A stretch of 64,000 nucleotides of DNA, taken from the NCBI GenBank assembly GCA_002305115.1, contig DBQF01000001.1:373767-437766 (forward strand). Reading direction: 5' to 3'. Source of the DNA: a candidate division WWE3 bacterium UBA1401 (lineage in GTDB: Bacteria > Patescibacteriota > WWE3 > UBA101185 > UBA10185). Below the pieces are notes generated by a model. The model saw only the letters and a program-made list of their open reading frames with translations. It was not told the DNA's origin and did not search any database. Positions 747 through 38,215 of this stretch are shown here, in pieces. Position 1 is the first letter of the stretch. Every line of letters starts with the position of its first letter. A program made the translations under genes and the position numbers.

Positions 747-753
747 TGATAGG

Positions 754-12679: not shown

Positions 12680-12685
12680 AGTATA

Positions 12686-12691
12686 GTTATA
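12686..12691 (-). promoter_or_regulatory. -10-like TATAAC box 6 nt upstream of the galE ATG
   Basis: The minus strand reads cttTATAACtatactATG. Confidence 0.35.
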
Positions 12692-12725
12692 AAGCTAGCA
12701 TAAAATTTGCCCAAAACAAAACCTA

Positions 12726-13535: not shown

Positions 13536-13537
13536 CT

Positions 13538-16232: not shown

Positions 16233-18457
16233 AAAAAGCATTAGTTACCGGATCTGCAGGTTTAATAGGCTCCGAAGCTGTGCGGTTTCTTGTTACACAA
16301 GGTTTTCAGGTTATTGGTATAGACAATGATATGAGAAAGTATTTCTTTGGAGATGAGGCCAGCACAGACTGGAACAGAAAGCTTTTGGAACAAGAGTACT
16401 CAGACTACAAACACTTTTCAACAGATATTAGGGGTAAATCAGCACTAGATGAAATTTTTGACCAACATAAGTTTGATTTGATAATACATACAGCTGCACA
16501 GCCCTCACATGATTGGGCTGCTAAAGAGCCTTTAACAGACTTTTCTGTAAATGCTTTAGGAACACTCAATTTACTAGAATCCTTCAGAAACTATTGTCCG
16601 GAAGCGGTTTTTATTTTCACATCTACTAACAAAGTATATGGAGATACCCCAAATGAGCTTCCGCTGGTGGAACATGAAACCCGCTTTGAAATTTCACCAG
16701 ATCACAAGTATGCAAACGGTATAGATGAAACAATGTCTATTGATTTTTCTAAACATAGCATTTTTGGTGCTTCCAAAGTTGCTGCAGATATTATGGTGCA
16801 AGAATATGGTAGATACTTTGGGCTTAATACTGTCTGCTTTAGAGGCGGCTGTCTAACAGGTCCTTCCCATAGTGGTACTAAACTGCATGGCTTTCTTGCA
16901 TACCTAATTAAGTGTATTGCTGAAAGCAACCCTTATACGATTTTAGGTTATAAGGGTAAGCAAGTTAGAGACAATATTCATTCAGAAGACTTAATTTCTG
17001 CCTTTTGGGAATTTTATCAAAACCCCAGGCAGGGAGAAGTTTACAATATTGGTGGATCTCGCCACTCCAACGTTTCTATGATGGAAGCCATTGAGAAGAT
17101 AGAGCAGGCTTTTGGGCGCAAAGGAAATATTGATTATTCAGAACAAAACCGTATTGGCGATCACATTTGGTATGTGTCAGATGTATCAAAATTTCAGAAG
17201 CACTACCCTAAATGGCAGTATAAATATAATATAGATGACATAATAGAGGAAATTTGTACCTTTGGCCATTTTTCAATTCCTCAAGTTTCTAGCGTTGTGG
17301 TTTCAGAGATGGAATCCACATTCAGGCAGAAAATATTTGTGGCTTCGCACGTCACTGAGGGTTTTGGTGTAGTACAAGCCCTTAAAGCTTATTTAGTAAA
17401 AAGAAACCCAAGATTTGCTTTTGTAGAACATCCGTTTTCTTATTCGGGTATATCCGGGTCTCGAGTCAGTACCTTCAGATCTAGTTTGCCTTCCACTGAG
17501 GAAGCCAAGAAACAGACACGTAATGTTTTTTTGTCCTTCATTAGAGACTTTGTCTTGTCTATTTATTGGTGTTTTAAAAGAGGTAAGGATAGTACTGTTT
17601 TTGTTGGTGTAGATAGCCTAAATGCTTTGGCAGGGCTAGTACTTAAGAGGTTGGGTTTGAATTTTGAACTGGTTTACTATGCTCCAGACTATACTCCTAA
17701 CAGGTTTGATAATAAGTTACTGAATAAGATTTATCAGACAATAGATAGAGTTGTTTCTAAAGGAGCTGATTATGTTTGGAATATTTCAGAACGAATGCAG
17801 CAGATGCGCGCCGATTTTGTAGAAGAAAGCCGAAATTTGTATGTGCCAAACGGAGTTTATCTAGATAAGGTAAACTTGGAAGCAAGAAAAGGTAGAGATA
17901 TTAATTCTTTAGTTATTTCAGAACATTTAACTAAAGGTAAAGGGCTTGAACTGGTGCTCGACTGCTTCGAGGATATCTTAAAGCTTAATGCTAACGCAAC
18001 TCTTTCTATTCTCGGTACAGGACCTGACGAAAGATATTTTAAAAGTCTAGTTGCCGAAAAACGTTTGCAAGATAAAATTTTCTTCTTAGGTAATGAAACT
18101 CCCGATATTTATCTTAATTATCTTGCAAAGTTTGGTATAGGGCTTTGTTTTAGAGAAGGAGGTGTGGAGAGCTTGGCCTATTATTCAGATCCTACTTCTG
18201 TAAAAGAGTTTCTTTCATGTGGAGTTCCTGTTATAGTAACTAGTAACCTATGGGTTTCGGTTGAGGTTGCAAGCGTACCACTTGGCAAAGCTATTGCGTT
18301 AACCAAATCTGATTTGCTTGATGCTTTAGGAAACCTCTGGCAAGATTCTGATTTATATGGCAAGGCGTCTCGGAATGGACCAGCCTTTAGTAATAAATTT
18401 TCTTGGGAGAAGATCTATCTTAGAGCATTTGCTCATCTTAAAAATTATGACCAATGA
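16229..18457 (+). CDS. fusion protein: N-terminal extended-SDR NAD-dependent sugar epimerase-like domain (CDP-paratose 2-epimerase-like) plus a C-terminal GT4-like glycosyltransferase domain
   Basis: TGSAGLIGS Rossmann motif and STNKVYGD are present, but FGASK replaces the expected YGxSK. The C-terminal ~380 aa are paralogous to the next gene and end with a GT-B C-lobe (ILGTGPDE...[11 protein letters not shown]). Confidence 0.8.
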
Positions 18458-22968: not shown

Positions 22969-23910
22969 TTATTTCCACGCTTGCAGATCTCTCTGTAGCA
23001 GCTGTTCTATAGTTTCAACCTCCTGCCTAAATTCTTCCTTTAATTTCTGCTCTGTTGCTTTGGCCATAGGAGGATAGCTTTCACTTGTATACATAATTTT
23101 CCTGTAGGCTTTTTTTATAAAGCAGTCTGTATTTATTAGATTATTTAGTGCCCTATCCATCTTTAGTTCAAGCATGGTGTTGATGGCAAAATCGGTTATT
23201 TCTGCTATAAATGGATGTCTTAGTTTGGTAGTTTTGTTTTTACGTTTGTATAGTACTGATGGCTCAAAGCTGGAATCTACTCCTATAAACTCATAAACTT
23301 CTTTTAATGTTTTTTTTGGATTATCTCTAATATCCAGCAGTGGTACTACTAGCAGTTGCTCCTTGCTAAATATATCCATACAGTTTTTTATATGAGTAGC
23401 AAACCTTGCTTTGCTTTTGTGATAGGGTTGTGTTGTATTTTCTGAGGCTATTGCTTCTTCAAAAGTGTCTGGCATTTTGTGGTGTGCGTGTGAGTATTTC
23501 AGGTACCAGTAAAGTGAATACAGAAATCTCACAGGATTTCTTATGGCAAGAATGATCCGAATGTTGGGAAAAGCTTCTTTCACCTTCATTAGTGCTGGTT
23601 TGTCAAAAACATACTGAATGCTAAATTCTCCCCTTTTTTTACCTGTATCCCAAGAAAAATCATTACGGTATTCATCGACAGTTTTTAATCTATTTATGGT
23701 GTAGACATTTTGGAAAAACTCATTATCTTGTGGAGGGCTTAAGAAGAAATGTGGCTCTTTGTGTTGGGAAAAATCAATTTCCGGGTGTTCACTAAGACAC
23801 GCAACCAGCCATTCTGTTCCGCACTTGGGTGTGCCTACACCCATAAAATCTATTGTGAAATCACTCGGAAAATTCATGATATTAACGAAATCACCATATG
23901 ATGATACCAT
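22969..23910 (-). CDS. PAPS-dependent sulfotransferase family protein
   Basis: GVGTPKCGTEWL matches the 5'-phosphosulfate-binding loop (PKxGT). AIRNPVRFLYSLY matches the 3'-phosphate-binding motif (RNPxxR). It is a lone minus-strand gene between plus-strand operons. Confidence 0.75.
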   Translation of the reverse strand: MVSSYGDFVNIMNFPSDFTIDFMGVGTPKCGTEWLVACLSEHPEIDFSQHKEPHFFLSPPQDNEFFQNVYTINRLKTVDEYRNDFSWDTGKKRGEFSIQYVFDKPALMKVKEAFPNIRIILAIRNPVRFLYSLYWYLKYSHAHHKMPDTFEEAIASENTTQPYHKSKARFATHIKNCMDIFSKEQLLVVPLLDIRDNPKKTLKEVYEFIGVDSSFEPSVLYKRKNKTTKLRHPFIAEITDFAINTMLELKMDRALNNLINTDCFIKKAYRKIMYTSESYPPMAKATEQKLKEEFRQEVETIEQLLQRDLQAWK

Positions 23911-23925
23911 AAGCTTATAAGCTGT

Positions 23926-26361
23926 ATGTCTTTACGCTCACTTAATGCAAAAATAATACTCAATAAATTGCTGCCCTTCTTGATTATTGGGTGTGTTTCA
24001 CTTACCTCCTTAACCTGGTTTAGAGGAAATCACCTAATTGGGGCAGGGGATCATTACAAAGCTATTGATTATTACTCATATCTAAAGGATCAGTGGTTTA
24101 GTTGGGATGACAGATTTAATACTGGTTCTACGGATTATTCTCTACATCAGCATCTGCCGGCTTCCCTTGTTTATTTACCTCTTGGGTACCTTGGATTTTC
24201 GCGTCTTTTTATGGAGAAGGTTTGGTTCTACTTATCCATGTTTTTGCCTGCTAGCTTTATGTATCTGTTTTTAAGGCGTTTTTTACCTAAAAAGACTCCC
24301 AAAGCTTTGGCTATAGCAGGTTCCCTTTTCTACATTTTTAATCCTTTACTTATATTACATCCCTTTGCTACAACACTTTCCAAGTTTCCTGCCTACCTTA
24401 CGCTGCCCTTATTTGTTTTTCTTATGGTTAGTATTTTCGAAGAAAGAAATTGGCGCAAGAAAGTAACACAAAGTTTTATTTTCGTTTTGGCTAGTTGTTT
24501 GCTTAGTTCTTCTTTTACAAATATTGCTGAAACAGCCCCTGTTTTCATTGTACTTGGCACTTTATTTATTTACGAATTAACCCAATCCAGAGACAAAATT
24601 AAGCACATCTTACTGTTTGGACTTATTGTATTTTTTAGTCTGCTTGTAAATTTCTGGTGGATTTATGGTTCTTTTTACAATCAATTTTTGATTAGAAACA
24701 AGTTTGTAAAAAACATGGGGGATTTTATCCCCCAAACATTTATACATGGGACATTGCGGCTATTAGGTAGTTGGGCTTTGCACTCTTCCTACAGAGGTGT
24801 CCCGTACTTCACATTTGCTCCATTTTATTATTCAAGAGCTGGCATATTTTGGACATATTTAACAACTTTATTTGTTTTCAGTTCCTTGTTTTTTGTTGTG
24901 CTGACTCCCAACTTCCTTAAGCAATCTGAGCGCAGGAGACTATTATTGGTTATCTTTTTAGCACTTGTAGGCATTTTTCTGGCAAAGGGTGATAGTGGTC
25001 CGTGGGGGGTATGGTATGCAAATGTTTTAGATAAGTTTCCTCTACTTAGAATGTTTAGAGAGGCCTATACGAAATTTAGTTTGATAACGCTATTTTCGTA
25101 TAACGTAGTTCTTACTTTTGTGCTTTACTTATTTTATATTCTTCTTGGTAAGAAACGGGGTGTGGACATAGTATTAGCCTCACTTTTTTTCCTATTAGTA
25201 TCACTAACTTCTTATCCTTTACTTAATGGAGAAGTGGCGCCAGACAGAGCCAATGGCGTTATAAAGCAATTTATTGTAAAGGTGCCTGCTTACTGGGATG
25301 AACTAAATAGCTATACAAAACGAAATCCAAGAATTGGCCGTACGTTAACTCTGCCAAAGAACGGATATTATGGGGTAAGTTACATTTGGGAAAAAGGGTT
25401 TAACGGCAGGGCTTCGGATATTTTTTATACAGGGGCTCTTGGTTTTTTTAACAGATTTGATACTGCTAATGAAGGTGATTTACTCTTTAGAGATCTTTAT
25501 GATTTTATTGCAGCTTATAATCTGGAAGGTGACCCCTCTGCTATGACTGGTTTTGTTAATCTTGCGCGAGTGTTGAATGTTAACTATTTGTTACAACAAA
25601 ATGATTTTGACTGGCGTCAACTAAATTTTGGCACTCCGGCTCCAGCAGAATGGTCTATAGCTGCGATGACACAATTTCTTGAAAATACCTCAGACTATAT
25701 TGTTCTAGAAAAAAACTTTGGGCGATTTACTGACGATTATCTAAAAAAGATATCTTTTATTACTGGAGGAAAGAATATAAATATTATTCAAGGTGATCCA
25801 ACCTATGAAGAGTATGCTTCAGAGTTAGTGGGAAGAGAGGCTTTAGCTCTTTACGCCCTTAAGCCCGAATATAAAACCTTCAGAATTTACACTCCCGATG
25901 TCATCACTATTACACCTTCAAAAGAAGACATGTTACAGCAGTTGAGAGACGCCAACTATTTGGCGAAAGCTCCATTATTTGTGGATTCAATAGATCTATC
26001 CCCAGCTATAACTTTTAGACCAAGTGTTACTTATCAGAGAATTAACCCGGCAAAATATAAAGTTATCTTAGCTGGCCAAAGATCTGATACGACTGTTTTA
26101 GTTTTCAGTGACAGTTATGACGATAACTGGCAGCTTGCTTCTTCATGCAACTTATTAGGGTGTGAATTCATAGAAGCTGCCCATTTTATGGCTAACTTTT
26201 ATGCTAATGGTTGGTTGCTAGAATCCGATGTACCAGATGAGTTCTTTATTGTTTATAAAGCGCAGTTTAGGTTGGTCAAAAGTGTACTGGTTTCTGCTAT
26301 TACGCTTCTTGGTTTAGCTGGTACTTATATTTGGTTTAGCAAGAGATATAAGCATGTTTAG
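23926..26361 (+). CDS. large GT-C-type membrane protein, AftD (alpha-(1->3)-arabinofuranosyltransferase)/DUF3367-like architecture
   Basis: 811 aa. The N-terminal polytopic block has GAGDHYKAIDYY...W..RFNTG after TM1. A large soluble domain follows, then a single C-terminal TM (SVLVSAITLLGLAGTYIWF). It is a paralog of 26518..29466. Confidence 0.7.
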   Translation: MSLRSLNAKIILNKLLPFLIIGCVSLTSLTWFRGNHLIGAGDHYKAIDYYSYLKDQWFSWDDRFNTGSTDYSLHQHLPASLVYLPLGYLGFSRLFMEKVWFYLSMFLPASFMYLFLRRFLPKKTPKALAIAGSLFYIFNPLLILHPFATTLSKFPAYLTLPLFVFLMVSIFEERNWRKKVTQSFIFVLASCLLSSSFTNIAETAPVFIVLGTLFIYELTQSRDKIKHILLFGLIVFFSLLVNFWWIYGSFYNQFLIRNKFVKNMGDFIPQTFIHGTLRLLGSWALHSSYRGVPYFTFAPFYYSRAGIFWTYLTTLFVFSSLFFVVLTPNFLKQSERRRLLLVIFLALVGIFLAKGDSGPWGVWYANVLDKFPLLRMFREAYTKFSLITLFSYNVVLTFVLYLFYILLGKKRGVDIVLASLFFLLVSLTSYPLLNGEVAPDRANGVIKQFIVKVPAYWDELNSYTKRNPRIGRTLTLPKNGYYGVSYIWEKGFNGRASDIFYTGALGFFNRFDTANEGDLLFRDLYDFIAAYNLEGDPSAMTGFVNLARVLNVNYLLQQNDFDWRQLNFGTPAPAEWSIAAMTQFLENTSDYIVLEKNFGRFTDDYLKKISFITGGKNINIIQGDPTYEEYASELVGREALALYALKPEYKTFRIYTPDVITITPSKEDMLQQLRDANYLAKAPLFVDSIDLSPAITFRPSVTYQRINPAKYKVILAGQRSDTTVLVFSDSYDDNWQLASSCNLLGCEFIEAAHFMANFYANGWLLESDVPDEFFIVYKAQFRLVKSVLVSAITLLGLAGTYIWFSKRYKHV

Positions 26362-26521
26362 AATTTTAGGGATAATCTCTTTATTAATTAGCTCACTGTT
26401 ACTTATTAGGTTAATGTTTGTTGTAGGGTTTAATCCTGCTGGGCTCAAAGCAGCCGAGGCATTCTTCATAAGCTTTTTGGTTTCTTTTGCTCTTATAGTT
26501 ATTGCAGAAAAATTCGAATGA
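26354..26521 (+). CDS. unlisted 55-aa two-helix membrane micro-protein
   Basis: My own translation is MFRILGIISLLISSLLLIRLMFVVGFNPAGLKAAEAFFISFLVSFALIVIAEKFE*. Its ATG overlaps the upstream stop (ATGTTTAG) and its TGA overlaps the downstream start (ATGA). It fills an otherwise empty 156-nt gap and is below the 60-aa cut-off of the ORF track. Confidence 0.45.
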   Translation: MFRILGIISLLISSLLLIRLMFVVGFNPAGLKAAEAFFISFLVSFALIVIAEKFE

Positions 26522-29466
26522 CTCGACTGAACAGATTACTGGTTCTAGTGATCCTTACTTTAGCCTCTGTGGTCTTTATCTTGCCCTATACTCAAAAGGG
26601 CCTTATTATTGCAGGGGGAGAGTCTTCTATTTATCTGAATCCAGGATATATAAATTACCAAACTACTTGGCTAGACAAATTTAATTTTGGTACTGAGTCC
26701 ACACACCAGGCTAACATTTTCTTATTCGACTACTTTTGGAAAGTACTAAGCATACAAAAAATACTTCACCCTTCTGTGTTTTTTATATTCTTATCAACTT
26801 TGTTAAGTAGCTTGGCATTTTATTATGTGTCGGATAAGATGATTAAGCCGCAGAACGCTTTTGCTTTGTTGGCTCCTAGTTTGCTTTATACATTTAATGT
26901 TTTTAGATTATTAGGCCCTTTAAATGAACGTTTGATCTTATTATTCATATTTTTGCCCTTATTTTTTTATGCGTACTACAAGTTCTTAGAAGTTCCTAAT
27001 GTGAAAAATATTTTACGCATAGCAATTTTGTCCATTCTTTCCTCTTCCATGGGCGCTAATATGCCAGTTTTTACTATCCCCTATGTTCTTATGACCCTAT
27101 ACTTTGGCTATTACCTTATTACTCACCCTGGTACTCAAGTTAGTAAGTTGTTAAGCTGGCACATAGTTTTGATTCTTACTATTTTGTTAGTAAATTTATT
27201 TTGGATTGTTCCTGTAGGTATTCAACTAGTAGATTTGTACAAACGCTCCGCTGGTAAATTAGATGCGTACTTTACGGTTTTGCAAAGTGGTACTTTCCTT
27301 GACCATTTTAGATTATTAGGTTCGTGGGGTTGGAGAGGTGCTCATAACGGTGAACTTTACTACCCTTATTCAGAACTTTATGATAAGCCCCTTTTGTTGA
27401 GTTCGACTTTGGTTGTTACTTTGTTATCTTTTCTGACTTTATTTACAAAACCCCGCAAGCCACAAACCTTTTTTTTGGTTCTGGCAGTTATTGCGTTAAT
27501 TTTGTTAGCAGGTACTAAAGGCCCTTTCTATTTTGCATTTCAAATACTGTATAGATTTATACCTGTGTTTCGAATATATAGGGAACCCTTTACAAAATTT
27601 ATGCCCCTATTCCTGCTTGCTGCGTCCCTTAACCTGGTTTTTACTCTAGATTATCTTGCCGGAAAAATTAAGGGCTATGTTGCCAGGTTAGTCTGTTTGT
27701 GCTTTGTTGCAGTTCTGGTTTTATTAAATGCTTACCCTTTTTTTGTGGCAGAGGCCATTCCTAAAACCCGCTTCACCAATTTAGTATTACAAGTGCCTCA
27801 GCACTGGCAGGATGCAAAGGCTATTCTTAGCCAGTACGATGACAGTAGCAACATTTTGATTTCACCTTATAATACCTATAGCACTAGTTATAATTGGGAT
27901 CCTACCCCGACTATTACTGGAAATATCGCAGACTACTTGCTACCTAATAGGTTGTTACGAGCTTGGCGCACAGATCAGTCTCCATCTGGAATTCTAGTTT
28001 CAAGTATTTTTGATAGTTCCAGACCTTATGATCTTAAGAACTATTTAAGTTTGTTCAATGTAGGCTACGTTTTGCAGGAGAATGACCTTAAGTGGACGAG
28101 TTCCGAGCAAATTGACTCGCCTTTACATTTTAATGCATACTACAAAAATCATGGTCTTAAAGTATTGGAAGAGTTTGGTTACTCTTCCAGTTTAGAAATG
28201 CCCCAGCTTACCTTCTACGAAATACCCGAGGCTTATAGTTCTGCGCTGGTTTATGTGCCCAAAGAAGTTTATTATGCGTCAGTAGCTTTACCACAGCTTA
28301 AGTACCTTACTAGTGTAGCTGATTACGCCATTCCTTCTGCCTTTATTGTTGAGGATCTTCCAAGCTTGATAAACCCTGAACTGATTAAGGGCACTTACCT
28401 GTTGCGTGACACAGCTATGTGGTTTGATTACAAGAGCGCCACATGGCATAAGGAGTGGACTTGGCCGCAGGCAACTATAGACCCGTCCAAACCCGAACAT
28501 AACTTAGTTCGACTTAAAGAGGGTGTAATAGAGAGGCTTAAGCGTTCAAATTATTATAGCGATTATGTCGAATATCTTATTTGGTTAGGTGTCAAGAGAT
28601 CTGTAGAGTTGCATGACTATAATGTAGATTCGGCTACTGAAGAACAATTAATTAATGAGTGGCATAACTATTTTAGTTTAGCCTTGCAAGTGTTAAGAGA
28701 CGTACCTGATCAAGAAAGGGCAGAAGATTATTGGCAGTTAGTTGGTAAAGTTTATTCGTATTACCAAAAAACTATTGCCACATACCCCGAGCTGGCTCAG
28801 CATGCCGACTTGTTGGCTAGTTTTCCTAAATCAAGCCTTTTTTGTGGTTCTAACTGTGCAACTTTTACTTTTACTGAAGCAGGACAGTATGCATTGTATA
28901 TTGATAAATTCTCTTTAAGCTTGTCCGAAGCTGGCTTTCCAGATATTGTAACAACAAATGCTTTGTTCACACCTGTAGCCCTAGATTCCGGTTGTAATTA
29001 TTGGTGCCACGCTGGGTATTTAGAGGTTTCTTCAGTTAACAGTATTGTAAATATAGAGCTAGCTGATTCCTACAGTAAGCCTATGATTATGTTGCGAAAA
29101 ATCAAAAGGCCTGCTGCCGGTAATATTCCTGAAGCAATTGCTTATGAGAAAATTAGTTCTACAGAGTACAAAGTTTCTGTGTATGAACCTAAAGATCCTT
29201 TCGTTATGGTTTTCAATCAAAGTTTTTCACCTCTATGGAAACTCACTAATCCCAGTAGTGACTTGACCGCCACACACTTTAAGGCAAACGGTTTCGCGAA
29301 TGCATGGCAGATTGTTCCTCAAAGTAATGCTGATCGACTTGATTTTGTTCTAGCTTACTCTGCAGAACCTTATTTTGTAATAGCACTTACAATAGCTTTA
29401 GCAGTATTAGTTTTTGGTACTATCTATCTAGTTGGTAATCATTTGTATGCTAAAAAGAGTAGCTGA
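26518..29466 (+). CDS. large GT-C-type membrane protein, AftD/DUF3367-like, paralog of 23926..26361
   Basis: 982 aa. IIAGGESSIYLNPGY...WLDKFNFGTE follows TM1. Blocks FRLLGSWGWRG and YREPFTKF are shared with the upstream paralog (LRLLGSWALHS, FREAYTKF). There is a C-terminal TM anchor. Confidence 0.7.
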   Translation: MTRLNRLLVLVILTLASVVFILPYTQKGLIIAGGESSIYLNPGYINYQTTWLDKFNFGTESTHQANIFLFDYFWKVLSIQKILHPSVFFIFLSTLLSSLAFYYVSDKMIKPQNAFALLAPSLLYTFNVFRLLGPLNERLILLFIFLPLFFYAYYKFLEVPNVKNILRIAILSILSSSMGANMPVFTIPYVLMTLYFGYYLITHPGTQVSKLLSWHIVLILTILLVNLFWIVPVGIQLVDLYKRSAGKLDAYFTVLQSGTFLDHFRLLGSWGWRGAHNGELYYPYSELYDKPLLLSSTLVVTLLSFLTLFTKPRKPQTFFLVLAVIALILLAGTKGPFYFAFQILYRFIPVFRIYREPFTKFMPLFLLAASLNLVFTLDYLAGKIKGYVARLVCLCFVAVLVLLNAYPFFVAEAIPKTRFTNLVLQVPQHWQDAKAILSQYDDSSNILISPYNTYSTSYNWDPTPTITGNIADYLLPNRLLRAWRTDQSPSGILVSSIFDSSRPYDLKNYLSLFNVGYVLQENDLKWTSSEQIDSPLHFNAYYKNHGLKVLEEFGYSSSLEMPQLTFYEIPEAYSSALVYVPKEVYYASVALPQLKYLTSVADYAIPSAFIVEDLPSLINPELIKGTYLLRDTAMWFDYKSATWHKEWTWPQATIDPSKPEHNLVRLKEGVIERLKRSNYYSDYVEYLIWLGVKRSVELHDYNVDSATEEQLINEWHNYFSLALQVLRDVPDQERAEDYWQLVGKVYSYYQKTIATYPELAQHADLLASFPKSSLFCGSNCATFTFTEAGQYALYIDKFSLSLSEAGFPDIVTTNALFTPVALDSGCNYWCHAGYLEVSSVNSIVNIELADSYSKPMIMLRKIKRPAAGNIPEAIAYEKISSTEYKVSVYEPKDPFVMVFNQSFSPLWKLTNPSSDLTATHFKANGFANAWQIVPQSNADRLDFVLAYSAEPYFVIALTIALAVLVFGTIYLVGNHLYAKKSS

Positions 29467-29770
29467 TCAGCATCCATTGCTTGTAAAGGTACTTTTACTG
29501 GGTGTTTTAGCACTAGATATCTTTGTGTTTAGAGCTCAGTACTATTTGCTAACTCTAGTGTTTTTCTTCATCTTTTTCGCAGCTATGCAGGCATTTTCTG
29601 TAAAGAGTATGTTTCCAGGCCTGGCTTTTTTTTCTTGTGTATTTATAAGTGCCTTGCTGTTTGCGCTGGAATTAGAAAAACTATCTGAAGCGTTTGCTAT
29701 ATGGGGGTTGGTATTTCTTGTATCTGCCACTATAATAAAAGTGCTGGAAGAGAAAGCTGATAATGCTTGA
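29447..29770 (+). CDS. small polytopic membrane protein (107 aa), function unknown (possibly a GtrA/ArnE-like small flippase)
   Basis: The track ORF starts at 29432; ATG 29447 is preferred. It has several hydrophobic segments, overlaps both neighbours, and has no recognisable motif. Confidence 0.5.
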   Translation: MLKRVADQHPLLVKVLLLGVLALDIFVFRAQYYLLTLVFFFIFFAAMQAFSVKSMFPGLAFFSCVFISALLFALELEKLSEAFAIWGLVFLVSATIIKVLEEKADNA

Positions 29771-30791
29771 TTTACCAAAAGTCTCTATTTTAATACCTAC
29801 GCTTAATACAGCAGCTGTGTTGGAGAGTTGTCTTAAGTCTATTCAAATGCAAGACTACCCGAAAGATAAGATCGAAATCATACTGGGGGATGGGGGTTCT
29901 ACTGATGATACTGTTAAATTAGCTTCTAGTTATGGTGCACGCATAATCCCTAACCCACTAAAAACCGGTGAAGCAGGAAAGCTTGTAGCACTTAAGCAGG
30001 CTACAGGAGAATTTTGTGCCCTTATTGATTCCGACAATATCTTACCTACATCAAGCTGGCTAAGAGAAATGATAGTTCCATTACTTAAGCATCCTGAAGC
30101 TGTGGGTAGTGAGCCCTGGAAATATACCTGGCGCAAGAGTGACAGCTTTATAACAAGATATTCTGCATTAATTGGTATGAATGACCCTTTAGTGCACTTT
30201 TTGGGAAACTATGACCGTGTCAATTTGCTTACAGGTAAATGGACAGAAGTAACTCACGAAGAACAAGACTGTGGGGAGTACCTTCTAGTGGCTTTCGATA
30301 AGCATGGTATTCCTACTATAGGTGCAAATGGTACCGTTTTTAGAACAAGCTTTTTGCTGGATAATGTGTCTGGAAACTATCTTTTTGACATTGATATTTT
30401 GGCAAAGAAGATACATAAGAATGGAAAAGTAACCTTTATAAAAGTAAAAAATGGCATAGTTCATACTTTTTGTGAAGGTGACATTTTTAAATTTTCCAGA
30501 AAGCAACGCAGACGTATTAAAGATTTTTTATACCATCAGTCATTAGGTGAGCGGGACTATGACTGGGATTTTTCGCAAAGCAACTTAAAGGGTTTGCTTA
30601 AGTTTATGGCTGCTTGTATTACTGTTGTGCCATTAATTTATCAAAGCTTAAAAGGGTTTATGCGAAAGCCTGATATCGCCTGGTTCTTTCACCCCTTAGC
30701 ATGCGAACTGACACTTTGGGAGTACGGTATTGGAAGAGTAAAGGGGTTTTTCAAAAAGTCCCAGCTTAGTAGGGCAAATTGGGGTCAATAG
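29763..30791 (+). CDS. GT2 glycosyltransferase
   Basis: VSILIPTLN, ILGDGGSTDDT and ALIDSDN (DxD) motifs, plus a hydrophobic segment near the C-terminus. Confidence 0.8.
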   Translation: MLDLPKVSILIPTLNTAAVLESCLKSIQMQDYPKDKIEIILGDGGSTDDTVKLASSYGARIIPNPLKTGEAGKLVALKQATGEFCALIDSDNILPTSSWLREMIVPLLKHPEAVGSEPWKYTWRKSDSFITRYSALIGMNDPLVHFLGNYDRVNLLTGKWTEVTHEEQDCGEYLLVAFDKHGIPTIGANGTVFRTSFLLDNVSGNYLFDIDILAKKIHKNGKVTFIKVKNGIVHTFCEGDIFKFSRKQRRRIKDFLYHQSLGERDYDWDFSQSNLKGLLKFMAACITVVPLIYQSLKGFMRKPDIAWFFHPLACELTLWEYGIGRVKGFFKKSQLSRANWGQ

Positions 30792-30793
30792 CC

Positions 30794-32344
30794 ATGTACG
30801 TTATTGGAGATTTGGATGACCAAACACTAACCTTAGTATGGAGTAAACTTTCTGATACGGTTCTTAGTTTGCCCCCGATTTTCAAAGACTTTCCGGTATA
30901 TCAGCAATTGTTTTCACCCTTTATTCGGCCATTTACAGATTATCAACCATTGGCTAGTTTAGTTATTTCGCTTTTTTTTACACTATTTGGGGGTTTTGCT
31001 CAGCCTGTGTTTATGGCTCTTACACTGTTTATTAATTTTTTTGTCAGTTATCGTTTTTTTAAAAAGTATAAAGTTGGGCTGTTTTTAGCATTGCTCTTTA
31101 CCTTTTCCTCGTATTGGTGGATTCACTTGGGTGTCCATCTTATTTTGATACAGCTGTGGGTTTTTCCTTTCCTTTTTATTCTAGTTGATAAAGTGCAAGA
31201 GGCTAGTAATTTAAAGAGCATATTGATGTTAGGGTTGTGGCTTGCACTAATTTCAATAATTTCACTATACTATGGTTTTTTCTCACTCCTGTTTCTTTCT
31301 ATATATGTAATTGTTGAAATTATTTTTAGAAAACAATCAACTAAGTTACACCTAGCTGCATTGGGCATTGGGTTTTTACTTACACTTATTCTTCAGCTGC
31401 CCAACATTTATAAATTTGTGGCTTCTGATAGTAAGTTTAGTAATGTTAGTATATCTCGTGCCTACGAAGATTTTTTTTACTTTAGTTCCAGGCCTTGGTA
31501 TTTTTTTATACCCCCTACAAGAAATCCACTTTATGGGAAATTTGCCGAACAGCTAATTGACTCGGTGGCTGCAACCAATTATTTTTTAGCTGATGACTAT
31601 TTTCCTAGAGAGCATTCGGGTAATTTTTTCGGATATCTTTTCTATGTGCTAGTTACTGTTAGTGTCGCTTTTGTTCTGGTAAAAGGTCCGACAGCTCTAA
31701 AACGGCACGTATCGTTTCTGGTGTTACTAGTTGTTGTTTTGGGCGCTTTTATGATGCCGCCTTTTTTTACAGTTTCAGGCCTGAAACTATACACACCTTC
31801 TCAGCTGATTTTTGCTTTGCTACCTGTTTTTAGGGTTAGTACAAGAATGGTGATTTTGATTCATCTGGTTTTACTTATGCTTCTTGGTGTTGTTTATGAT
31901 TTCATACTGACTCAGTATGTTATTAGTAAGCGTTATTTGAGTGTGTTTGCAAGTATAGTTACAGTAATAATCTTGATGGAGACTTATATTCCCCCGGAAG
32001 TTAAGCATTTTGTACCCCCTGATGTATATGCTTATATGGGTAGTCATTTAGATAGTGGCACAAAATTTGTTGTGTACCCTTATGATAGTACTCAAGAGGC
32101 TTTGCTTTGGTTGGACGTACATAAGGGGCTGTTGGTCAACCCTAGGGGGTATCACGACGCGAATTACGATGCTGAGAGTTTTACAAAAGCGCTTGGTGTT
32201 GGTGATAGTTTGGAAGTTTTGAAGTCTATGGGCACGGAGTATTTGGTGGTTTTTGAAGGTGACGAGGCTGATGAGGTTGATGTGTCTAGGGGTTTGGAGA
32301 AGGTGCAGGAGTTTAGTTCTTCGACTTTATACAAAGTGCTTTAA
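30794..32344 (+). CDS. polytopic membrane protein with a soluble C-terminal domain, GT-C-like
   Basis: ATG 30794 lies 2 nt after the upstream stop (the track TTG 30779 is less likely). The N-terminus has GDLDDQTLTLVW, many hydrophobic segments follow, and the C-terminal tail is ...SSSTLYKVL as in the other GT-C-like proteins. Confidence 0.6.
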   Translation: MYVIGDLDDQTLTLVWSKLSDTVLSLPPIFKDFPVYQQLFSPFIRPFTDYQPLASLVISLFFTLFGGFAQPVFMALTLFINFFVSYRFFKKYKVGLFLALLFTFSSYWWIHLGVHLILIQLWVFPFLFILVDKVQEASNLKSILMLGLWLALISIISLYYGFFSLLFLSIYVIVEIIFRKQSTKLHLAALGIGFLLTLILQLPNIYKFVASDSKFSNVSISRAYEDFFYFSSRPWYFFIPPTRNPLYGKFAEQLIDSVAATNYFLADDYFPREHSGNFFGYLFYVLVTVSVAFVLVKGPTALKRHVSFLVLLVVVLGAFMMPPFFTVSGLKLYTPSQLIFALLPVFRVSTRMVILIHLVLLMLLGVVYDFILTQYVISKRYLSVFASIVTVIILMETYIPPEVKHFVPPDVYAYMGSHLDSGTKFVVYPYDSTQEALLWLDVHKGLLVNPRGYHDANYDAESFTKALGVGDSLEVLKSMGTEYLVVFEGDEADEVDVSRGLEKVQEFSSSTLYKVL

Positions 32345-32442: not shown

Positions 32443-33291
32443 ATGCCTCAATTACAATATCTTCTGCACCCGATTGTGGCTTATCCACAATCAAAAGGTC
32501 TCCAGACTGCTCTTAAACTTGCAACCGATGCAGGGTACTCTGGCATTGTGATGGTACCCTTTGGCCCTTGGCCTGTTGAAGAAATAAGGGCTGTTCCACC
32601 TGAGAAAGTGGGTGCTGTCGAGGGGGCATGGCATGCCGCCACAGTTGCCAACTTTTGGCATTTAGCGTCTTTAATGCGTGTTGCACACCTTCGTGACAGT
32701 TCTGTTCCATTGCCTTGGGACAACCTCTTTTGGGGGGACCATGACCAAGTCGTCGCTAAGGAGGCAGTAATTCAGCACTGCTTTTCAGGCTGTGCTATTT
32801 ATTCAGGTCATGGCCCTGAAAACACAATTGGGTGGCCAGTAGAAAGATACGCGTGGGAGGTTAATCCTGACCATGGTATATATGGTGATGACGTGCTTGA
32901 GGTGCCCGGTAAATTTGGTATAGACTTTCTACATCTTACCCGCCTTTCGCGTATAGATCCCACAAAGCGCATAGTGGCACCAGACCAAATGTTGGCGTTT
33001 ATTCAGGAGCTGATCAAACAGCGAGGCACAGACATTGTACTTGTGCACTTGCACCTAGCTGCTACCCAGATAGTGCCATTTACGTTAGGGTTGGTGCCTC
33101 CTGAGCTACGTGAAGGTTTTAGGATGCTCGCGCAACTTGGGGATTTACCAGTAGCTGTCCAGTTTTTACCTCCGTTTCCACTGAATTGGTCCTATAGTAC
33201 CGCAGTAAGGTATCTCCGTAGGATCAAAGAAGTTGCTGACGGACTTTACCTTGTAGGTTTACGCGAGCTTAAGCGCGCTTACGCGTTTTAA
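32443..33291 (+). CDS. hypothetical protein, visibly GC-richer than its neighbours (weak resemblance to xylose-isomerase-like TIM-barrel proteins)
   Basis: 282 aa with no TM segments. LKLATDAGYSGIVM and VLVHLHLAA are only weakly reminiscent of sugar-phosphate isomerase/epimerase TIM barrels. It has its own promoter and SD. Long spurious antisense ORFs (32481..32723, 32513..32710) reflect the higher GC. Confidence 0.55.
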   Translation: MPQLQYLLHPIVAYPQSKGLQTALKLATDAGYSGIVMVPFGPWPVEEIRAVPPEKVGAVEGAWHAATVANFWHLASLMRVAHLRDSSVPLPWDNLFWGDHDQVVAKEAVIQHCFSGCAIYSGHGPENTIGWPVERYAWEVNPDHGIYGDDVLEVPGKFGIDFLHLTRLSRIDPTKRIVAPDQMLAFIQELIKQRGTDIVLVHLHLAATQIVPFTLGLVPPELREGFRMLAQLGDLPVAVQFLPPFPLNWSYSTAVRYLRRIKEVADGLYLVGLRELKRAYAF

Positions 33292-33380: not shown

Positions 33381-34721
33381 ATGCGAACAGCTATAAGAAT
33401 CACCCTTTTTGCCTTTTGCGTATTCTTCTTCTCCTGGTTAGTTGTATACAAAACCGGTATCAACCCCTTAGGCATACAGTCAGAAGATACCTTGCCTGCC
33501 ATGTTCCTTCCTATTTCTGTTCTAAAAGACAAAACTTTATATGCTGATAACTACTTTGATATGATTCGGCAGAACTATCCGCACCCCGATGACAAAAGCT
33601 TTGAAAAAAACTTAACGCCCTTTTACTTTAAAAAAGTAGGCGAGCACTATATTTCAGCCTTTACTATCATGAGTGGGTTAGTGGCTATGCCGGTTTACTT
33701 GTTACCGGTTATTGCAAATATGCCCATAACCCTGGAAAGCATTACTATCTTGGCGCATGTCGCCTCTGCCTTAATTATGGCTTTCTCTGGAGGTGTCTTC
33801 TATCTGCTAGTGAAAAATAAGTTTTTCCTTAACGAGAAACACAGCTTCTTGCTTACTGGTATTTACTTGTTTGGCACAGTTAACTATGCTATGTTGTCAC
33901 AGGCGCTTTGGCAGCACGGTACTTTACAGCTATTTATCGTTATCGCCTTGTATTTTTTGTATGGCAAAAAGTGGTTTCTAAGCGCCCTGTTTTTAGGGTT
34001 TGCCTTTATAACGCGCCCCACAGCAGCCATAATCATATTTTATTTAGCTTTACTTGCCATTTACCTTAACGGGAAACTAGTGAGTGCAAAGTTCTTATTA
34101 GGATTTGTTCCGGCAATTGTATTTTTCTTGTGGTACAACAGTGCGTTTTATGCAGATATAACGAACCAGGGCTACGCTTCGCAGTTTATTACCGGTTGGA
34201 AATCTCGTTTTCCGGAGGGGTTTTTGGGTATCTGGCTTTCTCCCAGTAAGGGGATTTTAGTGTATTCCCCAGTACTTATTTTTTCGCTTGGGGGGATTTA
34301 TTTAGCAGTTAAGAATTGGCGAGCACATGTAGACTATATTCTTTTTGGCAGTATTATTTTCATGTATACGCTTGTCTTTGGTATGTGGCAGCACTGGTAC
34401 GGTGGGTTTTCTTTTGGGTATAGAATGGCTTCCGATGTTATTCCTTTCTTGGTGTTGTGTTTAGTACCGTTTGTGAAGTCTAGGTGGTTTGAGAAGTTTA
34501 GGCAGTGGTTCTATGGGGCAATTGTATTTTCGGTATTAGTGCAGGTTTGTGGGATCGTGTTTTTTGATACTATTTGGCATAACGCATATGATGATGGGTA
34601 TGTTGACACGGCTTGGTTATGGTCGGTGAAGGATAGTGAGTTTGTGTTTAATGTAAGAAGGGTTTTAGTGAAGCTAGGCCTTTTGGAGCGCGCCTGCCCA
34701 CAGTGTCTTCCTGGAAAGTAG
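33381..34721 (+). CDS. polytopic membrane protein, GT-C-like (PMT_2/DUF2029-like)
   Basis: 446 aa. GIQSEDTLPAMFLP follows TM1, and the rest of the protein is almost entirely hydrophobic segments. Confidence 0.6.
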   Translation: MRTAIRITLFAFCVFFFSWLVVYKTGINPLGIQSEDTLPAMFLPISVLKDKTLYADNYFDMIRQNYPHPDDKSFEKNLTPFYFKKVGEHYISAFTIMSGLVAMPVYLLPVIANMPITLESITILAHVASALIMAFSGGVFYLLVKNKFFLNEKHSFLLTGIYLFGTVNYAMLSQALWQHGTLQLFIVIALYFLYGKKWFLSALFLGFAFITRPTAAIIIFYLALLAIYLNGKLVSAKFLLGFVPAIVFFLWYNSAFYADITNQGYASQFITGWKSRFPEGFLGIWLSPSKGILVYSPVLIFSLGGIYLAVKNWRAHVDYILFGSIIFMYTLVFGMWQHWYGGFSFGYRMASDVIPFLVLCLVPFVKSRWFEKFRQWFYGAIVFSVLVQVCGIVFFDTIWHNAYDDGYVDTAWLWSVKDSEFVFNVRRVLVKLGLLERACPQCLPGK

Positions 34722-37097: not shown

Positions 37098-38215
37098 AAG
37101 TACTGATGCAGGGCCGTATTGGCTTGCTGGAAGCAGGTGGCGGTGATTTGGTTCAGATAGAAAATACAGCTAAAGAGCTTAAGCTTTTAGGTGTAGATGT
37201 TGATATCAAAACCGGCTTTGACGTGGATTTTTCTCTTTATGACATTGTGCACATTTTCCAGTTGGATTGGACACCAGAATCTTTCTTTTATGCAAAGAAG
37301 GCTAAAGAGGCAGGTAAGCCGGTTGTACTCTCGCCAATTCACCATAGTGTTAAAGAAGTAGCTAAATTTGAGGAACAATATGCCTTTGGGTTTCGCAGAC
37401 TTACCAAAACTTTGTTTGAAGACCAATTCACCAGAGATACAGTAAAAGATGTTTATAGATCTTTGAAAGATAAGCGCAAGCTAATGCCAACGCTGGCAAG
37501 CATGTTTTTAGGTTTAAAAAACTTGCACCTGGGCACCTTAGGTATGGCAAATACAGTATTAGTGCAAACCGAGCAGGAAGCCCGGGATTTGGAAGAAACA
37601 TATGGTGTTCAGTTTAATTGGGAAAAAGTATCAAACGGTGTGGGTAAAAATTTTTTGGAGTATAAAGAAGGTAAGAATCCACTGGGTATAAAAGACTATA
37701 TTATTAGTATTGGTAGAATTGAACCCCGTAAAAATCATCTAAAGGTTGTTGAAGCTGTAAAAAGGTTTAGGCAGGAGTATAACCTAGATATACCACTCGT
37801 ATTTATTGGTTTAAAGCGGGAGAAAGTGCATTTCGAGTACACTTTCAGGTTTGATAGAGAATTAAAAAGACACAGCTGGATACGGCATCTAGATTACGTT
37901 CCTTATGAGGATATGCCTGCCTACTATCACTTTGCTAAAGTATGTGTTTCGGCCAGCTGGTTTGAAACGACAGGATTAACCAGCCTGGAGGCTCTGTTTT
38001 GTAGTACTAATGCTGTTGCCGCGGGAGCGCGGGCTAAGGAGTGCTTAGGTGAATATTCTTCGTATTGTTCCCCAGACAGTGTAACCTCTATTAAAGATGC
38101 TATTGCCAAAGAATATTTTGCACCCCGTCCGCACATTGATGATTCTATGCGTAGTGAATATACTTGGGAGAACGCGGCCAGAAAAACTCTGGCAGTTTAT
38201 GAGACGCTACTATGA
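37094..38215 (+). CDS. GT4-like glycosyltransferase
   Basis: GRIEPRKNHL and SWFETTGLTSLEAL motifs. There are ATGA overlaps on both sides. Confidence 0.8.
   Translation: MKVLMQGRIGLLEAGGGDLVQIENTAKELKLLGVDVDIKTGFDVDFSLYDIVHIFQLDWTPESFFYAKKAKEAGKPVVLSPIHHSVKEVAKFEEQYAFGFRRLTKTLFEDQFTRDTVKDVYRSLKDKRKLMPTLASMFLGLKNLHLGTLGMANTVLVQTEQEARDLEETYGVQFNWEKVSNGVGKNFLEYKEGKNPLGIKDYIISIGRIEPRKNHLKVVEAVKRFRQEYNLDIPLVFIGLKREKVHFEYTFRFDRELKRHSWIRHLDYVPYEDMPAYYHFAKVCVSASWFETTGLTSLEALFCSTNAVAAGARAKECLGEYSSYCSPDSVTSIKDAIAKEYFAPRPHIDDSMRSEYTWENAARKTLAVYETLL

What the first reader, a model, noticed from the sequence alone, without database searches (positions are those of the whole stretch)
23926..29770. Twin giant AftD-like GT-C proteins, each followed by a tiny membrane-protein gene
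Two paralogs of 811 and 982 aa share one architecture: a polytopic N-block, a large soluble domain and a single C-terminal TM anchor. They also share motifs (LRLLGSWALHS / FRLLGSWGWRG; FREAYTKF / YREPFTKF).

This architecture recalls mycobacterial AftD-type arabinofuranosyltransferases, which are not expected outside Actinobacteria-like envelopes. Each is followed by a small hydrophobic ORF that is translationally coupled to it (55 aa at 26354..26521; 107 aa at 29447..29770).

The repeated 'giant GT-C + mini membrane protein' unit suggests a two-component machine. The small protein could be a partner subunit or a small lipid-sugar flippase.
Basis: partly seen in the sequence, partly recalled or inferred. 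Interest (0 to 1): 0.55.

Follow-up and report, generated by a model that had tools for sequence, protein, structure and literature searches.

The report
AftD-like sugar transferases with mini partners
A candidate-phyla (Patescibacteria) genome carries an operon of three relatives of the mycobacterial cell-wall enzyme AftD, and the two large ones are each followed by a tiny membrane-protein gene whose position is conserved across distant relatives, which suggests unrecognised helper subunits.

Summary
ORFs of 811 aa (A), 55 aa, 982 aa (B) and 107 aa lie at the stated coordinates, and each stop overlaps the next start. A and B are true paralogs (25% identity over 567 aa, E=7e-23).

B passes the Pfam GT-C_AftD threshold. 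Its AlphaFold model matches mycobacterial AftD best, followed only by other GT-C enzymes.

The family is not confined to Actinobacteria. It is widespread in Patescibacteria and also appears in MAGs labelled Omnitrophota and Bathyarchaeia.

The mini-gene pairing is conserved. A small hydrophobic ORF follows 19 of 39 AftD-like genes, against 5 of 236 other genes. Four further members of the 4-helix family, found independently, also lie downstream of AftD-like genes (three directly, one after a 255-nt gap).

The two mini-proteins are unrelated to each other: one is a 2-helix type, the other a 4-helix type. Neither matches Pfam, GtrA or SMR flippases.

The 521-aa gene two genes downstream is a third, minimal AftD-like paralog (hhalign 98%).

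Every family member ends after one C-terminal helix, whereas mycobacterial AftD continues into an essential four-helix bundle. The 4-helix partner might supply that bundle in trans, but no sequence evidence supports this.

Verdict: a new variant of a known kind, of moderate interest.

The parts
23926..26361 (+). A: 811-aa AftD-like GT-C paralog (short 'A-type'), with about 10-11 TM helices, a 348-aa soluble domain and one C-terminal TM helix
   Evidence: ORF and translation. Paralog of B, E=7e-23. PF11847 at 15.2 bits, below the cutoff of 26. A-type genes that score far higher to A than to B in L014 and L015 (E 1e-179 and 1e-158), and weaker A-type matches in L026, L028, L029 and L031. Topology.
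26354..26521 (+). a55: 55-aa, 2-TM hairpin mini-protein, overlapping both A's stop and B's start
   Evidence: Equivalent 66-80 aa 2-TM ORFs overlap the stop of A-type genes in L014, L015, L029 and L031. Neither source that holds this contig has this ORF on record, and the Logan gene call omits it. No detectable relation to b107.
26518..29466 (+). B: 982-aa AftD-like GT-C paralog (long 'B-type'), with 11 TM helices, a 534-aa soluble domain and one C-terminal TM helix
   Evidence: PF11847 at 27.5 bits, above the cutoff of 26. AF2 model pLDDT 69. Foldseek top hit AftD 6w98_A (E=2e-6), followed by STT3, PglB, ArnT and AftA. Family-invariant residues include E35, W51, G58, D262, R265, K360, D472 and N924-W930.
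29447..29770 (+). b107: 107-aa, 4-TM mini-protein of an unannotated family with a 'CP...AEKxAxW' core, overlapping both B's stop and the GT2 start
   Evidence: AF2 predicts 4 helices, pLDDT 74. Positional equivalents follow B-type genes in 12 loci. The profile finds 49 small 'hypothetical' proteins with no Pfam match. Four independent members again lie downstream of PF11847 genes, three directly and one after a 255-nt gap.
29763..30791 (+). GT2 glycosyltransferase (342 aa), in the same overlapping gene chain
   Evidence: PF00535 E=1e-19. Orthologs (E 1e-118 to 1e-162) are adjacent to or near the cassette in L013, L014, L017, L018 and L020.
30779..32344 (+). X521: a third, minimal AftD-superfamily GT-C (521 aa). 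It has the TM block and the first soluble subdomain only, with no C-terminal TM helix
   Evidence: No Pfam hit. hhalign of the ortholog profile A6 against the AftD-like profile A1 gives probability 98.3%, E=2e-14 over 495 columns. The negative control A7 gives 2%. Orthologs lie downstream of B-type genes in 8 loci.
22969..23910 (-). Sulfotransferase, divergent neighbour of A
   Evidence: PF00685 E=2e-15. A full-length homolog holds the same position in L014; L015 has only a 133-aa fragment at the locus edge, about 5.5 kb upstream of its B-type gene.
712..1440 (+). Candidate synthase of the polyprenyl-phosphate-sugar donor (DPM1/ArnC/AglJ-like GT2, 242 aa)
   Evidence: PF00535 E=1e-34. Full-length NCBIfam matches, all below their cutoffs, to AglJ, ArnC, PpgS and dolichyl-phosphate hexose transferase. 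Its link to A and B is inferred, not shown.

Best explanation
The region is an operon, A-a55-B-b107-GT2-X521, inside a cell-envelope glycan island of about 46 kb in a Patescibacteria (CPR) genome.

A, B and X521 are three anciently diverged paralogs of the AftD superfamily of GT-C glycosyltransferases. These are polytopic enzymes whose active site faces the outside of the membrane. They transfer a sugar from a polyprenyl-phosphate-sugar donor onto a growing glycan.

Inferred pathway: a phosphoglycosyl transferase and cytoplasmic GT2/GT4 enzymes build a lipid-linked glycan, and Wzx-type flippases export it. The GT-C enzymes (AftD-like, PMT_2-like, DUF2079) then extend or branch it outside the cell. 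An LCP-family enzyme may finally attach it to the wall. This parallels arabinogalactan assembly in mycobacteria, but nothing indicates that the sugar here is arabinofuranose.

The two mini-genes encode real integral membrane proteins, co-translated with their large neighbour. Most likely they act as dedicated accessory subunits of the GT-C enzymes, for stabilisation, regulation or substrate handling at the outer leaflet.

Shown: the gene structure, the paralogy, the GT-C/AftD-type fold and family, and the conserved pairing. Inferred: the donor, the acceptor, physical association, and what the mini-proteins do.
For: GT-C identity:
- PF11847 above the curated cutoff for B, and A-B paralogy at E=7e-23.
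- The model of B has 11 N-terminal TM helices, as AftD does. Its best structural hits are AftD 6w98/6wby/6wbx, then STT3, PglB, ArnT and AftA.
- Weak matches to AftD occur in the same order along the protein: the EL1 motif W-x2-D-x2-FG, 'IPxYW...P' at the start of the soluble domain, 'Y(V/L)V..ND', and 'NGxxxxW.VP' just before the C-terminal helix.
- X521 is homologous to A and B, with a clean negative control.

Mini-proteins are real and linked to the GT-C genes:
- Overlapping stop and start codons.
- Small hydrophobic ORFs follow 19 of 39 AftD-like genes against 5 of 236 others. They occur in species whose large proteins share only 22-39% identity with B.
- The b-type family shares a motif and has 49 to over 100 members, all unannotated.
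- Four members found through the small-protein profile again lie just downstream of PF11847 genes, three directly and one after a 255-nt gap.
- By the positive-inside rule the b-type protein has both ends in the cytoplasm. This places the conserved AEK/W motif on the outer face, the same side as the GT-C active site (inference).

Pathway context: Bac_transf phosphoglycosyl transferase, GT4s, GT2s, three Wzx-like proteins, a Wzy_C+PMT_2 fusion, three PMT_2 proteins, DUF2079, an LCP protein and a DPM1-like GT2.

Precedent for AftD needing extra membrane parts: the essential TM13-16 bundle with bound ACP (bioRxiv 10.1101/2019.12.22.885152) and a 1:1 TmaT-AftD complex (bioRxiv 10.64898/2026.07.31.741936).
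Against: - No physical interaction has been tested.
- About half of the AftD-like genes, including B's closest N-terminal relatives (P0004-P0011), have no mini-gene downstream. A partner is therefore not a general requirement.
- A scores below the Pfam cutoff, and sequence similarity to solved AftD is not significant on its own (E about 3).
- The soluble domains are modelled with low confidence.
- Some members of the b-type family are fused to extracellular TIG/Ig-like domains rather than sitting next to a GT-C gene. Their genomic context could not be checked.
- The a-type mini-ORF is supported by only 5 loci and weak sequence similarity.
Confidence: 0.55

Rival explanations
1. The mini-proteins are small flippases for the polyprenyl-phosphate-sugar donor. 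They would be functional analogues of GtrA or of ArnE/ArnF, supplying the neighbouring GT-C from the cytoplasmic side.
For: b107 has 4 TM helices in 107 aa, the size class of GtrA and SMR proteins. The gene order GT-C, small TM protein, GT2 resembles arnT-arnE-arnF and gtrABC; that resemblance rests on established knowledge and was not tested here. The pairing with GT-C genes is conserved.
Against: No Pfam hit to GtrA-like, SMR or EamA families in any of 13 members even at E<=1. Foldseek against the PDB returns nothing with E<7, EmrE-type structures included. The island already encodes three Wzx-like proteins and one MprF-flippase-like protein. a55 has only 2 TM helices. Half of the AftD-like genes have no such neighbour.
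Confidence: 0.2
2. b107 specifically replaces, in trans, the essential four-helix bundle (TM13-16) that mycobacterial AftD carries after its TM12. On this reading the CPR enzyme is a 'split AftD'.
For: AftD is organised as TM1-11, soluble domains, a single TM12, an 18-residue loop and a four-helix bundle TM13-16. The bundle is unique to AftD, and truncation at T1285 abolishes function. All 34 family members checked end 0-18 aa after one C-terminal TM helix. The motif before that helix matches the AftD motif before TM12. The overlapping next gene encodes a 4-helix protein whose predicted topology (both ends inside) matches TM13-16.
Against: hhalign of the b-type profile against a reconstructed AftD TM13-16 sequence finds nothing, and hmmsearch against PDB sequences finds nothing. 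Foldseek gives no hit to 6w98. No fused intermediate appears among the top 150 family representatives. The conserved motif lies on the outer face, whereas the AftD bundle binds ACP on the cytoplasmic face. Many family members have no partner at all.
Confidence: 0.2
3. The mini-ORFs are not functional genes. They would be chance ORFs in the short gaps between real genes.
For: Neither source that holds this contig has a55 on record, and the Logan gene call omits it. Similarity among a-type ORFs is low. Shine-Dalgarno-like sequences upstream are weak.
Against: The genome is about 37% GC, so stop codons are frequent by chance, yet an open hydrophobic frame of similar length sits in the same position in many distantly related genomes. 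b107 homologs are detectable by sequence, and other annotation pipelines call them as genes.
Confidence: 0.05

Closest known systems
Mycobacterial arabinofuranosyltransferase AftD (PDB 6W98; Pfam PF11847 GT-C_AftD / DUF3367)
   Same: Same Pfam family for B. Best structural match. Eleven N-terminal TM helices. The EL1 motif, the start of the soluble GT-C domain and the 'NGxxxxW' motif before the re-entry helix all appear in the same order. Same overall plan: N-terminal TM block, outward-facing soluble region, C-terminal TM segment.
   Different: Sequence identity is only about 10-13% in the structural alignment. The proteins are 521-982 aa, against about 1400 aa for AftD. No CBM_AftD or F5/8-type-C domains were detected. 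The polypeptide stops after the TM12-equivalent helix, so it lacks the ACP-binding TM13-16 bundle. No genes for the decaprenyl-phospho-arabinose pathway were seen in the window. The host is a Patescibacteria cell, not a mycolate-containing actinobacterium.
arnT-arnE-arnF (Gram-negative lipid A modification) and gtrA-gtrB-gtrC (O-antigen glucosylation)
   Same: A GT-C gene lies next to genes for small membrane proteins of about 110-130 aa with 4 TM helices, and next to a GT2 gene.
   Different: ArnE/F are SMR-type and GtrA is PF04138. Neither family matches the proteins here. The comparison rests on my own knowledge of those operons and on negative Pfam results.
Eukaryotic oligosaccharyltransferase: STT3 with mini-subunits Ost4 (1 TM), Ost5/TMEM258 (2 TM) and Ost2/DAD1 (3 TM)
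   Same: A GT-C catalytic subunit (structural hits at ranks 3-8) accompanied by very small integral membrane subunits that stabilise or organise it.
   Different: This is an analogy only. No homology is claimed or detected. OST subunits are not known from bacteria.
TmaT-AftD 1:1 membrane complex and AftD/Emb-AcpM complexes in mycobacteria
   Same: AftD-type enzymes work with tightly bound partner proteins at the membrane domain.
   Different: TmaT is a large acyltransferase and AcpM is a soluble ACP. Neither resembles the mini-proteins here.

Membership tests
AftD family (Pfam PF11847 GT-C_AftD) | Match to PF11847 at or above the gathering score (26 bits): protein B | tested here: met
   27.5 bits, E=1e-6, residues 222-558 against profile positions 204-544. 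The precomputed Pfam domain for the identical database protein is also PF11847.
AftD family (Pfam PF11847 GT-C_AftD) | Match to PF11847 at or above the gathering score: protein A | tested here: not met
   15.2 bits, E=0.005. A is linked to the family only through its paralogy with B.
AftD family (Pfam PF11847 GT-C_AftD) | GT-C fold with 11 N-terminal TM helices plus a soluble GT-C domain facing outwards | tested here: met
   The AF2 model of B shows 11 helices before residue 405. Foldseek top hits are AftD (E=2e-6, probability 1.0, TMq 0.43), and hits 3-13 are all GT-C enzymes.
AftD family (Pfam PF11847 GT-C_AftD) | Essential active-site residues K39, D41, E251, K361 and D474 (M. abscessus numbering) | tested here: inconclusive
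   B has family-invariant E35, D262, K360 and D472 at similar positions. A weak HMM alignment places B's D472 within a few residues of AftD D474 and aligns the EL1 motif. The alignments score below significance and contain gaps, and no K39 equivalent is evident.
AftD family (Pfam PF11847 GT-C_AftD) | Three carbohydrate-binding modules in the soluble region (CBM_AftD PF24607 / F5/8 type C) | tested here: not met
   No such Pfam hits for A or B at E<=0.1. Actinobacterial aftD in L037 does show them. The soluble regions here are 348 and 534 aa.
AftD family (Pfam PF11847 GT-C_AftD) | TM12 followed by the ACP-binding four-helix bundle TM13-16 in the same polypeptide | tested here: not met
   A and B end 7 and 6 residues after a single C-terminal TM helix, and all 34 relatives checked do likewise. 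Whether b107 supplies a bundle in trans is untested.
AftD family (Pfam PF11847 GT-C_AftD) | Transfers arabinofuranose from decaprenyl-phospho-arabinose | not testable with these tools
   No UbiA-type or DprE-type genes among the window ORFs scanned. The rest of the genome was not seen.
GtrA-like (PF04138) or SMR-type (ArnE/ArnF, EmrE) small flippases, considered for a55 and b107 | Sequence match to the family model | tested here: not met
   No Pfam or NCBIfam hit for a55 or b107 at E<=0.1. No such hit in any of 13 b-type members at E<=1.
GtrA-like (PF04138) or SMR-type (ArnE/ArnF, EmrE) small flippases, considered for a55 and b107 | Four TM helices in about 105-140 aa | tested here: met
   b107 has helices at 10-27, 33-49, 55-73 and 77-106. 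a55 has only two, so it does not meet this feature.
GtrA-like (PF04138) or SMR-type (ArnE/ArnF, EmrE) small flippases, considered for a55 and b107 | Fold similarity to solved SMR transporters | tested here: not met

The most novel reading that the evidence does not exclude
AftD-type GT-C enzymes need an extra small helical membrane module to work. Actinobacteria carry it fused to the enzyme, as the essential TM13-16 bundle. Patescibacteria encode it as a separate, co-translated micro-subunit: the 4-TM 'AEKxAxW' family, and a 2-TM family for the short paralog. That would define a new class of bacterial GT-C accessory subunits, comparable to the mini-subunits of eukaryotic oligosaccharyltransferase, and would suggest where AftD's unique bundle came from.
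Probability: 0.2. Interest if true: 0.65.

Novelty: new variant of a known kind. Interest (0 to 1): 0.45.

Why it matters
How Patescibacteria build their cell envelope is essentially uncharted, and these bacteria depend on surface contact with host cells.

This locus shows that they use several AftD-superfamily enzymes. That family has so far been studied only as an essential, drug-relevant enzyme of mycobacteria.

It also shows that these enzymes come with conserved micro-proteins that current annotation either misses or labels 'hypothetical'. If the micro-proteins are subunits, they offer a simple split system for asking why AftD needs its additional membrane bundle. They would also add two protein families to the short list of known bacterial GT-C partners.

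If they are not subunits, the finding is still a useful correction to the annotation: three GT-C paralogs and two small-protein families, in an otherwise ordinary glycan gene cluster.

Tried and rejected
- **Direct sequence search of B against PDB sequences.** Only a chance hit. The profile search reaches AftD at E about 3, which is suggestive in position but not significant.
- **The search for related loci with the broad alignment A1.** Failed because no stretch was conserved enough. It was repeated with A2.
- **Pfam and NCBIfam scans of the mini-proteins.** Nothing found.
- **PDB sequence search with the b-type profile.** Nothing found.
- **Foldseek of the b107 model against the PDB.** Nothing found.
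- **Last protein search, used to fetch full-length AftD from a 132-aa fragment.** It returned only fragments. I then reconstructed the AftD C-terminus from frameshifted long-read contigs. The hhalign comparison with the b-type profile was negative, but the reconstruction is rough.
- **Rosetta-stone test for fusion of the b-type module to a GT-C or a GT2.** No such fusion appears in the top 150 representatives. The longer hits carry TIG, Big_7 or DUF4214 domains, or nothing recognisable.
- **a-type against b-type profile comparison.** Negative.
- **w33381 (446 aa) as a further AftD-like paralog.** Rejected, at 2% probability.
- **Complex prediction of a large protein with its mini-protein.** Could not be run with the tools offered.
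Full report
**1. What is in the sequence**

Six + strand ORFs between 23926 and 32344 form a chain in which every stop overlaps the next start:
- A: 23926..26361, 811 aa
- a55: 26354..26521, 55 aa
- B: 26518..29466, 982 aa
- b107: 29447..29770, 107 aa
- a GT2: 29763..30791, 342 aa
- X521: 30779..32344, 521 aa

A sulfotransferase gene lies divergently upstream (22969..23910).

A and B are paralogs. BLASTP gives 25% identity over 567 aa (E=7e-23), plus a second C-terminal segment.

Hydropathy and the AlphaFold model give both proteins the same plan: an N-terminal block of 10-11 TM helices, a soluble region (348 aa in A, 534 aa in B) and one C-terminal TM helix followed by only 6-7 residues.

a55 is a 2-helix hairpin. 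b107 has four helices. The two show no similarity to each other by BLASTP or by profile comparison.

**2. Genomic setting**

The window is about 37-40% GC. From about 700 to 47200 it is one large glycan-biosynthesis island, containing:
- a DPM1/ArnC/AglJ-like GT2 (712..1440)
- a DUF2079 protein
- three Wzx-like flippases
- an MprF-flippase-like protein, followed by three tandem PMT_2 GT-C genes
- sugar-nucleotide epimerases and dehydratases
- several GT2 and GT4 enzymes
- a B12-binding radical SAM enzyme
- three methyltransferases
- a Wzy_C+PMT_2 fusion
- a WbaP-type phosphoglycosyl transferase
- a DUF4012 protein

Downstream lie recO, a Y-family polymerase, an IS200-type transposase, a tRNA synthetase, mraZ/mraW, a PBP, an LCP-family protein, PPDK and enolase.

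The exact B, A and b107 sequences occur on one 544-kb NCBI contig and on one Logan assembly. The nearest relatives are all Patescibacteria, and the best synteny is with SAG AM-312-C07 (L014) and with WWE3 genomes.

**3. The large proteins are AftD-type GT-C enzymes**

- B matches Pfam PF11847 (GT-C_AftD, formerly DUF3367) at 27.5 bits, against a cutoff of 26. A scores 15.2 bits, below the cutoff.
- An AlphaFold2 model of B, built on 14 sequences, has mean pLDDT 69. The membrane domain is confident and parts of the soluble domain are poor. It shows 11 helices before residue 405.
- Foldseek against the PDB ranks mycobacterial AftD first (6w98_A, E=2e-6, probability 1.0). The other two AftD entries are in the top four. 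Next come STT3, PglB, ArnT and AftA, all GT-C enzymes. No non-GT-C protein scores below E=0.08.
- At sequence level the link to solved AftD is not significant alone (E about 3). The weak matches do fall in the same order along the whole protein:
  - the first external loop: B 'TWLDKFNFG...Q' against AftD 'LWSSDLPFG...Q'
  - the start of the soluble domain: 'IPxYW ... P'
  - 'Y(V/L)(L/V)..ND'
  - 'NGxxxxW.(V/I)P' immediately before the C-terminal helix

- The AftD paper names K39, D41, E251, K361 and D474 as essential. B's subfamily has invariant E35, D262, K360 and D472 at comparable positions. The residue-level mapping is uncertain, so I score that feature as inconclusive.
- No CBM_AftD or F5/8-type-C domains are detected.

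I therefore place B in the PF11847 family, and A in it by paralogy. I do not call either protein an arabinofuranosyltransferase.

**4. The family is not actinobacterial**

A scan of one genome per species found 24 loci. They come from MAGs labelled WWE3, Collierbacteria, Shapirobacteria, Saccharibacteria, other Patescibacteria, Omnitrophota, Humimicrobiia and a Bathyarchaeia archaeon. Two MAGs are labelled Gammaproteobacteria or Pseudomonadales. One relative is already named 'DUF3367 domain-containing protein [Patescibacteria group bacterium]'.

The AftD structure paper reported homologs only across Actinobacteria. I found no paper discussing this family in Patescibacteria.

**5. A third paralog**

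X521 has no Pfam hit. A profile of nine orthologs aligns to the AftD-like profile with hhalign probability 98.3% (E=2e-14, 495 columns). The alignment covers the TM block and the first soluble subdomain, corresponding to B residues 3-554.

As a control, another polytopic protein of the island, w33381, gives 2%. The X521 profile also hits A-type genes of two Saccharibacteria directly.

X521 orthologs lie downstream of B-type genes in eight loci. A-type genes score far higher to A (E 1e-179 and 1e-158 in L014 and L015) than A scores to B (E=7e-23), and B-type and X521 genes behave likewise. The three-way split is therefore old.

**6. The mini-genes are conserved**

*b-type.* A very hydrophobic ORF of 99-169 aa (GRAVY 0.9-1.3) starts within a few bases of the stop of the B-type gene in L009, L013, L014, L015, L017, L018, L020, L026, L028, L029 and L032. 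L024 has a less hydrophobic equivalent.

These ORFs share four predicted helices and a core motif. The motif is a 'CP' in helix 3 and 'AE(K)xAxW' at the start of helix 4.

A profile of them retrieves 49 small proteins. All are 'hypothetical' and none has a Pfam domain. Four of these, from other lineages, were looked up. Each lies just downstream of a PF11847 gene: three directly and one after a 255-nt gap (L033, L034, L035, L038/L039).

*a-type.* After A-type genes, a 66-80 aa 2-helix ORF overlaps the stop codon in L014, L015, L029 and L031.

*Counts.* With fixed thresholds, 19 of 39 AftD-like genes have such a follower, against 5 of 236 other genes. Adding the two family members that the thresholds missed gives 21 of 39. 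By my own tally of the rows, the pairing is commonest with long forms: 12 of 14 genes of at least 980 aa, against 8 of 25 shorter ones. The partner is therefore frequent but not obligatory.

*Exhaustive search.* A search of 1.8 billion representative proteins gives 103 hits at E<1e-10 and 1186 at E<1e-3. Some of these may reflect amino-acid composition rather than homology. Inspected sequences do carry the motif, including proteins with repeated modules or with extra extracellular TIG/Ig-like domains. None of the top 150 is a fusion to an AftD-like protein.

**7. What the mini-proteins might do**

*Flippase.* The size and gene order recall arnT-arnE-arnF and gtrABC. However, there is no sequence or fold similarity to GtrA or SMR proteins. 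The island also has four other flippase candidates.

*Accessory subunit.* This is favoured by the tight translational coupling, by the one-to-one gene pairing with particular paralog types, and by precedent. Mycobacterial AftD depends on an extra membrane module and on bound partners.

The architecture offers a striking parallel. AftD continues after its single re-entry helix TM12 into an essential four-helix bundle, TM13-16. Every protein of the present family stops right after the TM12-equivalent helix, and the next gene encodes a four-helix protein with matching predicted topology.

I could not support this parallel with sequence or fold evidence. The conserved motif of the mini-protein is predicted to face outwards, whereas AftD's bundle binds ACP on the cytoplasmic side. 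I therefore keep 'dedicated accessory subunit' as the best explanation (0.55 for the whole model). The split-AftD version and the flippase version each get about 0.2.

**8. Verdict**

Its main structural guess is right, and its conservation test comes out positive.

The corrections are:
- The family is normal for CPR genomes.
- There are three paralogs, not two.
- The two mini-proteins are unrelated to each other.
- The flippase idea has no support.

The enzymes themselves are new members of a known family. The conserved, unannotated mini-partners are the new element. Novelty is 'new variant of a known kind', and interest is 0.45.

Noticed in passing
window 30779..32344 (+): The 521-aa 'no Pfam' membrane protein is a third, minimal AftD-superfamily GT-C (hhalign 98.3% against the A/B family). 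It is conserved downstream of B-type genes in 8 other genomes.
   Followed up: yes
window 4956..10457 (+): An MprF-flippase-like protein (LPG_synthase_TM / TIGR00374) is followed by three tandem PMT_2-type GT-C genes with overlapping ends. This is a second GT-C array in the same island, with its own candidate flippase.
   Followed up: no
window 38212..41163 (+): A 983-aa fusion of an O-antigen-polymerase/ligase domain (Wzy_C, residues 218-374) with a PMT_2 GT-C domain (residues 486-673).
   Followed up: no
window 14748..16232 (+); also L018, L023, L024, L026, L033, L034, L038: A B12-binding radical SAM enzyme recurs next to AftD-like genes in many unrelated genomes. This hints at a conserved modification of the glycan, for example methylation.
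   Followed up: partly
window 22969..23910 (-); L014 2415..3392; L015 64..465 (133-aa fragment at the locus edge): A sulfotransferase lies divergent from the AftD-like operon, and a full-length homolog keeps that position in L014. L015 has only a fragment, about 5.5 kb upstream of its B-type gene. The glycan may be sulfated, which would be unusual for bacteria.
   Followed up: no
window 33381..34721 (+) and 32443..33291 (+): Two conserved proteins have no Pfam or PDB match. One is a 446-aa polytopic protein with an 'SEDTLP' loop after TM1, plausibly another GT-C type and not AftD-like (2%). The other is a 282-aa soluble protein lying in a block of higher GC (0.45, against about 0.37 either side).
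   Followed up: partly
window 16229..18457 (+): A 742-aa fusion of an NAD-dependent sugar epimerase/dehydratase with a GT1/GT4 glycosyltransferase domain.
   Followed up: no
window 49616..50047 (+): An IS200-type Y1 transposase lies just past the end of the glycan island, next to a Y-family polymerase gene.
   Followed up: no
L002 8438..9103 (-) and 12286..14517; L026 11955..12737; L028 9340..10104: CDP-alcohol phosphatidyltransferase genes sit directly beside AftD-like genes in three genomes, with PEP mutase (phosphonate synthesis) nearby in one. This suggests phosphodiester- or phosphonate-decorated glycans in some relatives.
   Followed up: no
L038 3805..4665; L039 4021..4863: A LAGLIDADG homing-endonuclease gene is inserted between the b-type mini-gene and the radical SAM gene. 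In these two contigs the AftD-like gene is called as two pieces (356 + 510 aa).
   Followed up: no
P0108, P0133, P0138, P0140, P0207: The b-type 4-helix module also occurs as three tandem repeats in one protein. It also occurs fused to extracellular IPT/TIG or Ig-like domains. It may therefore be a more general membrane module than a GT-C partner.
   Followed up: partly
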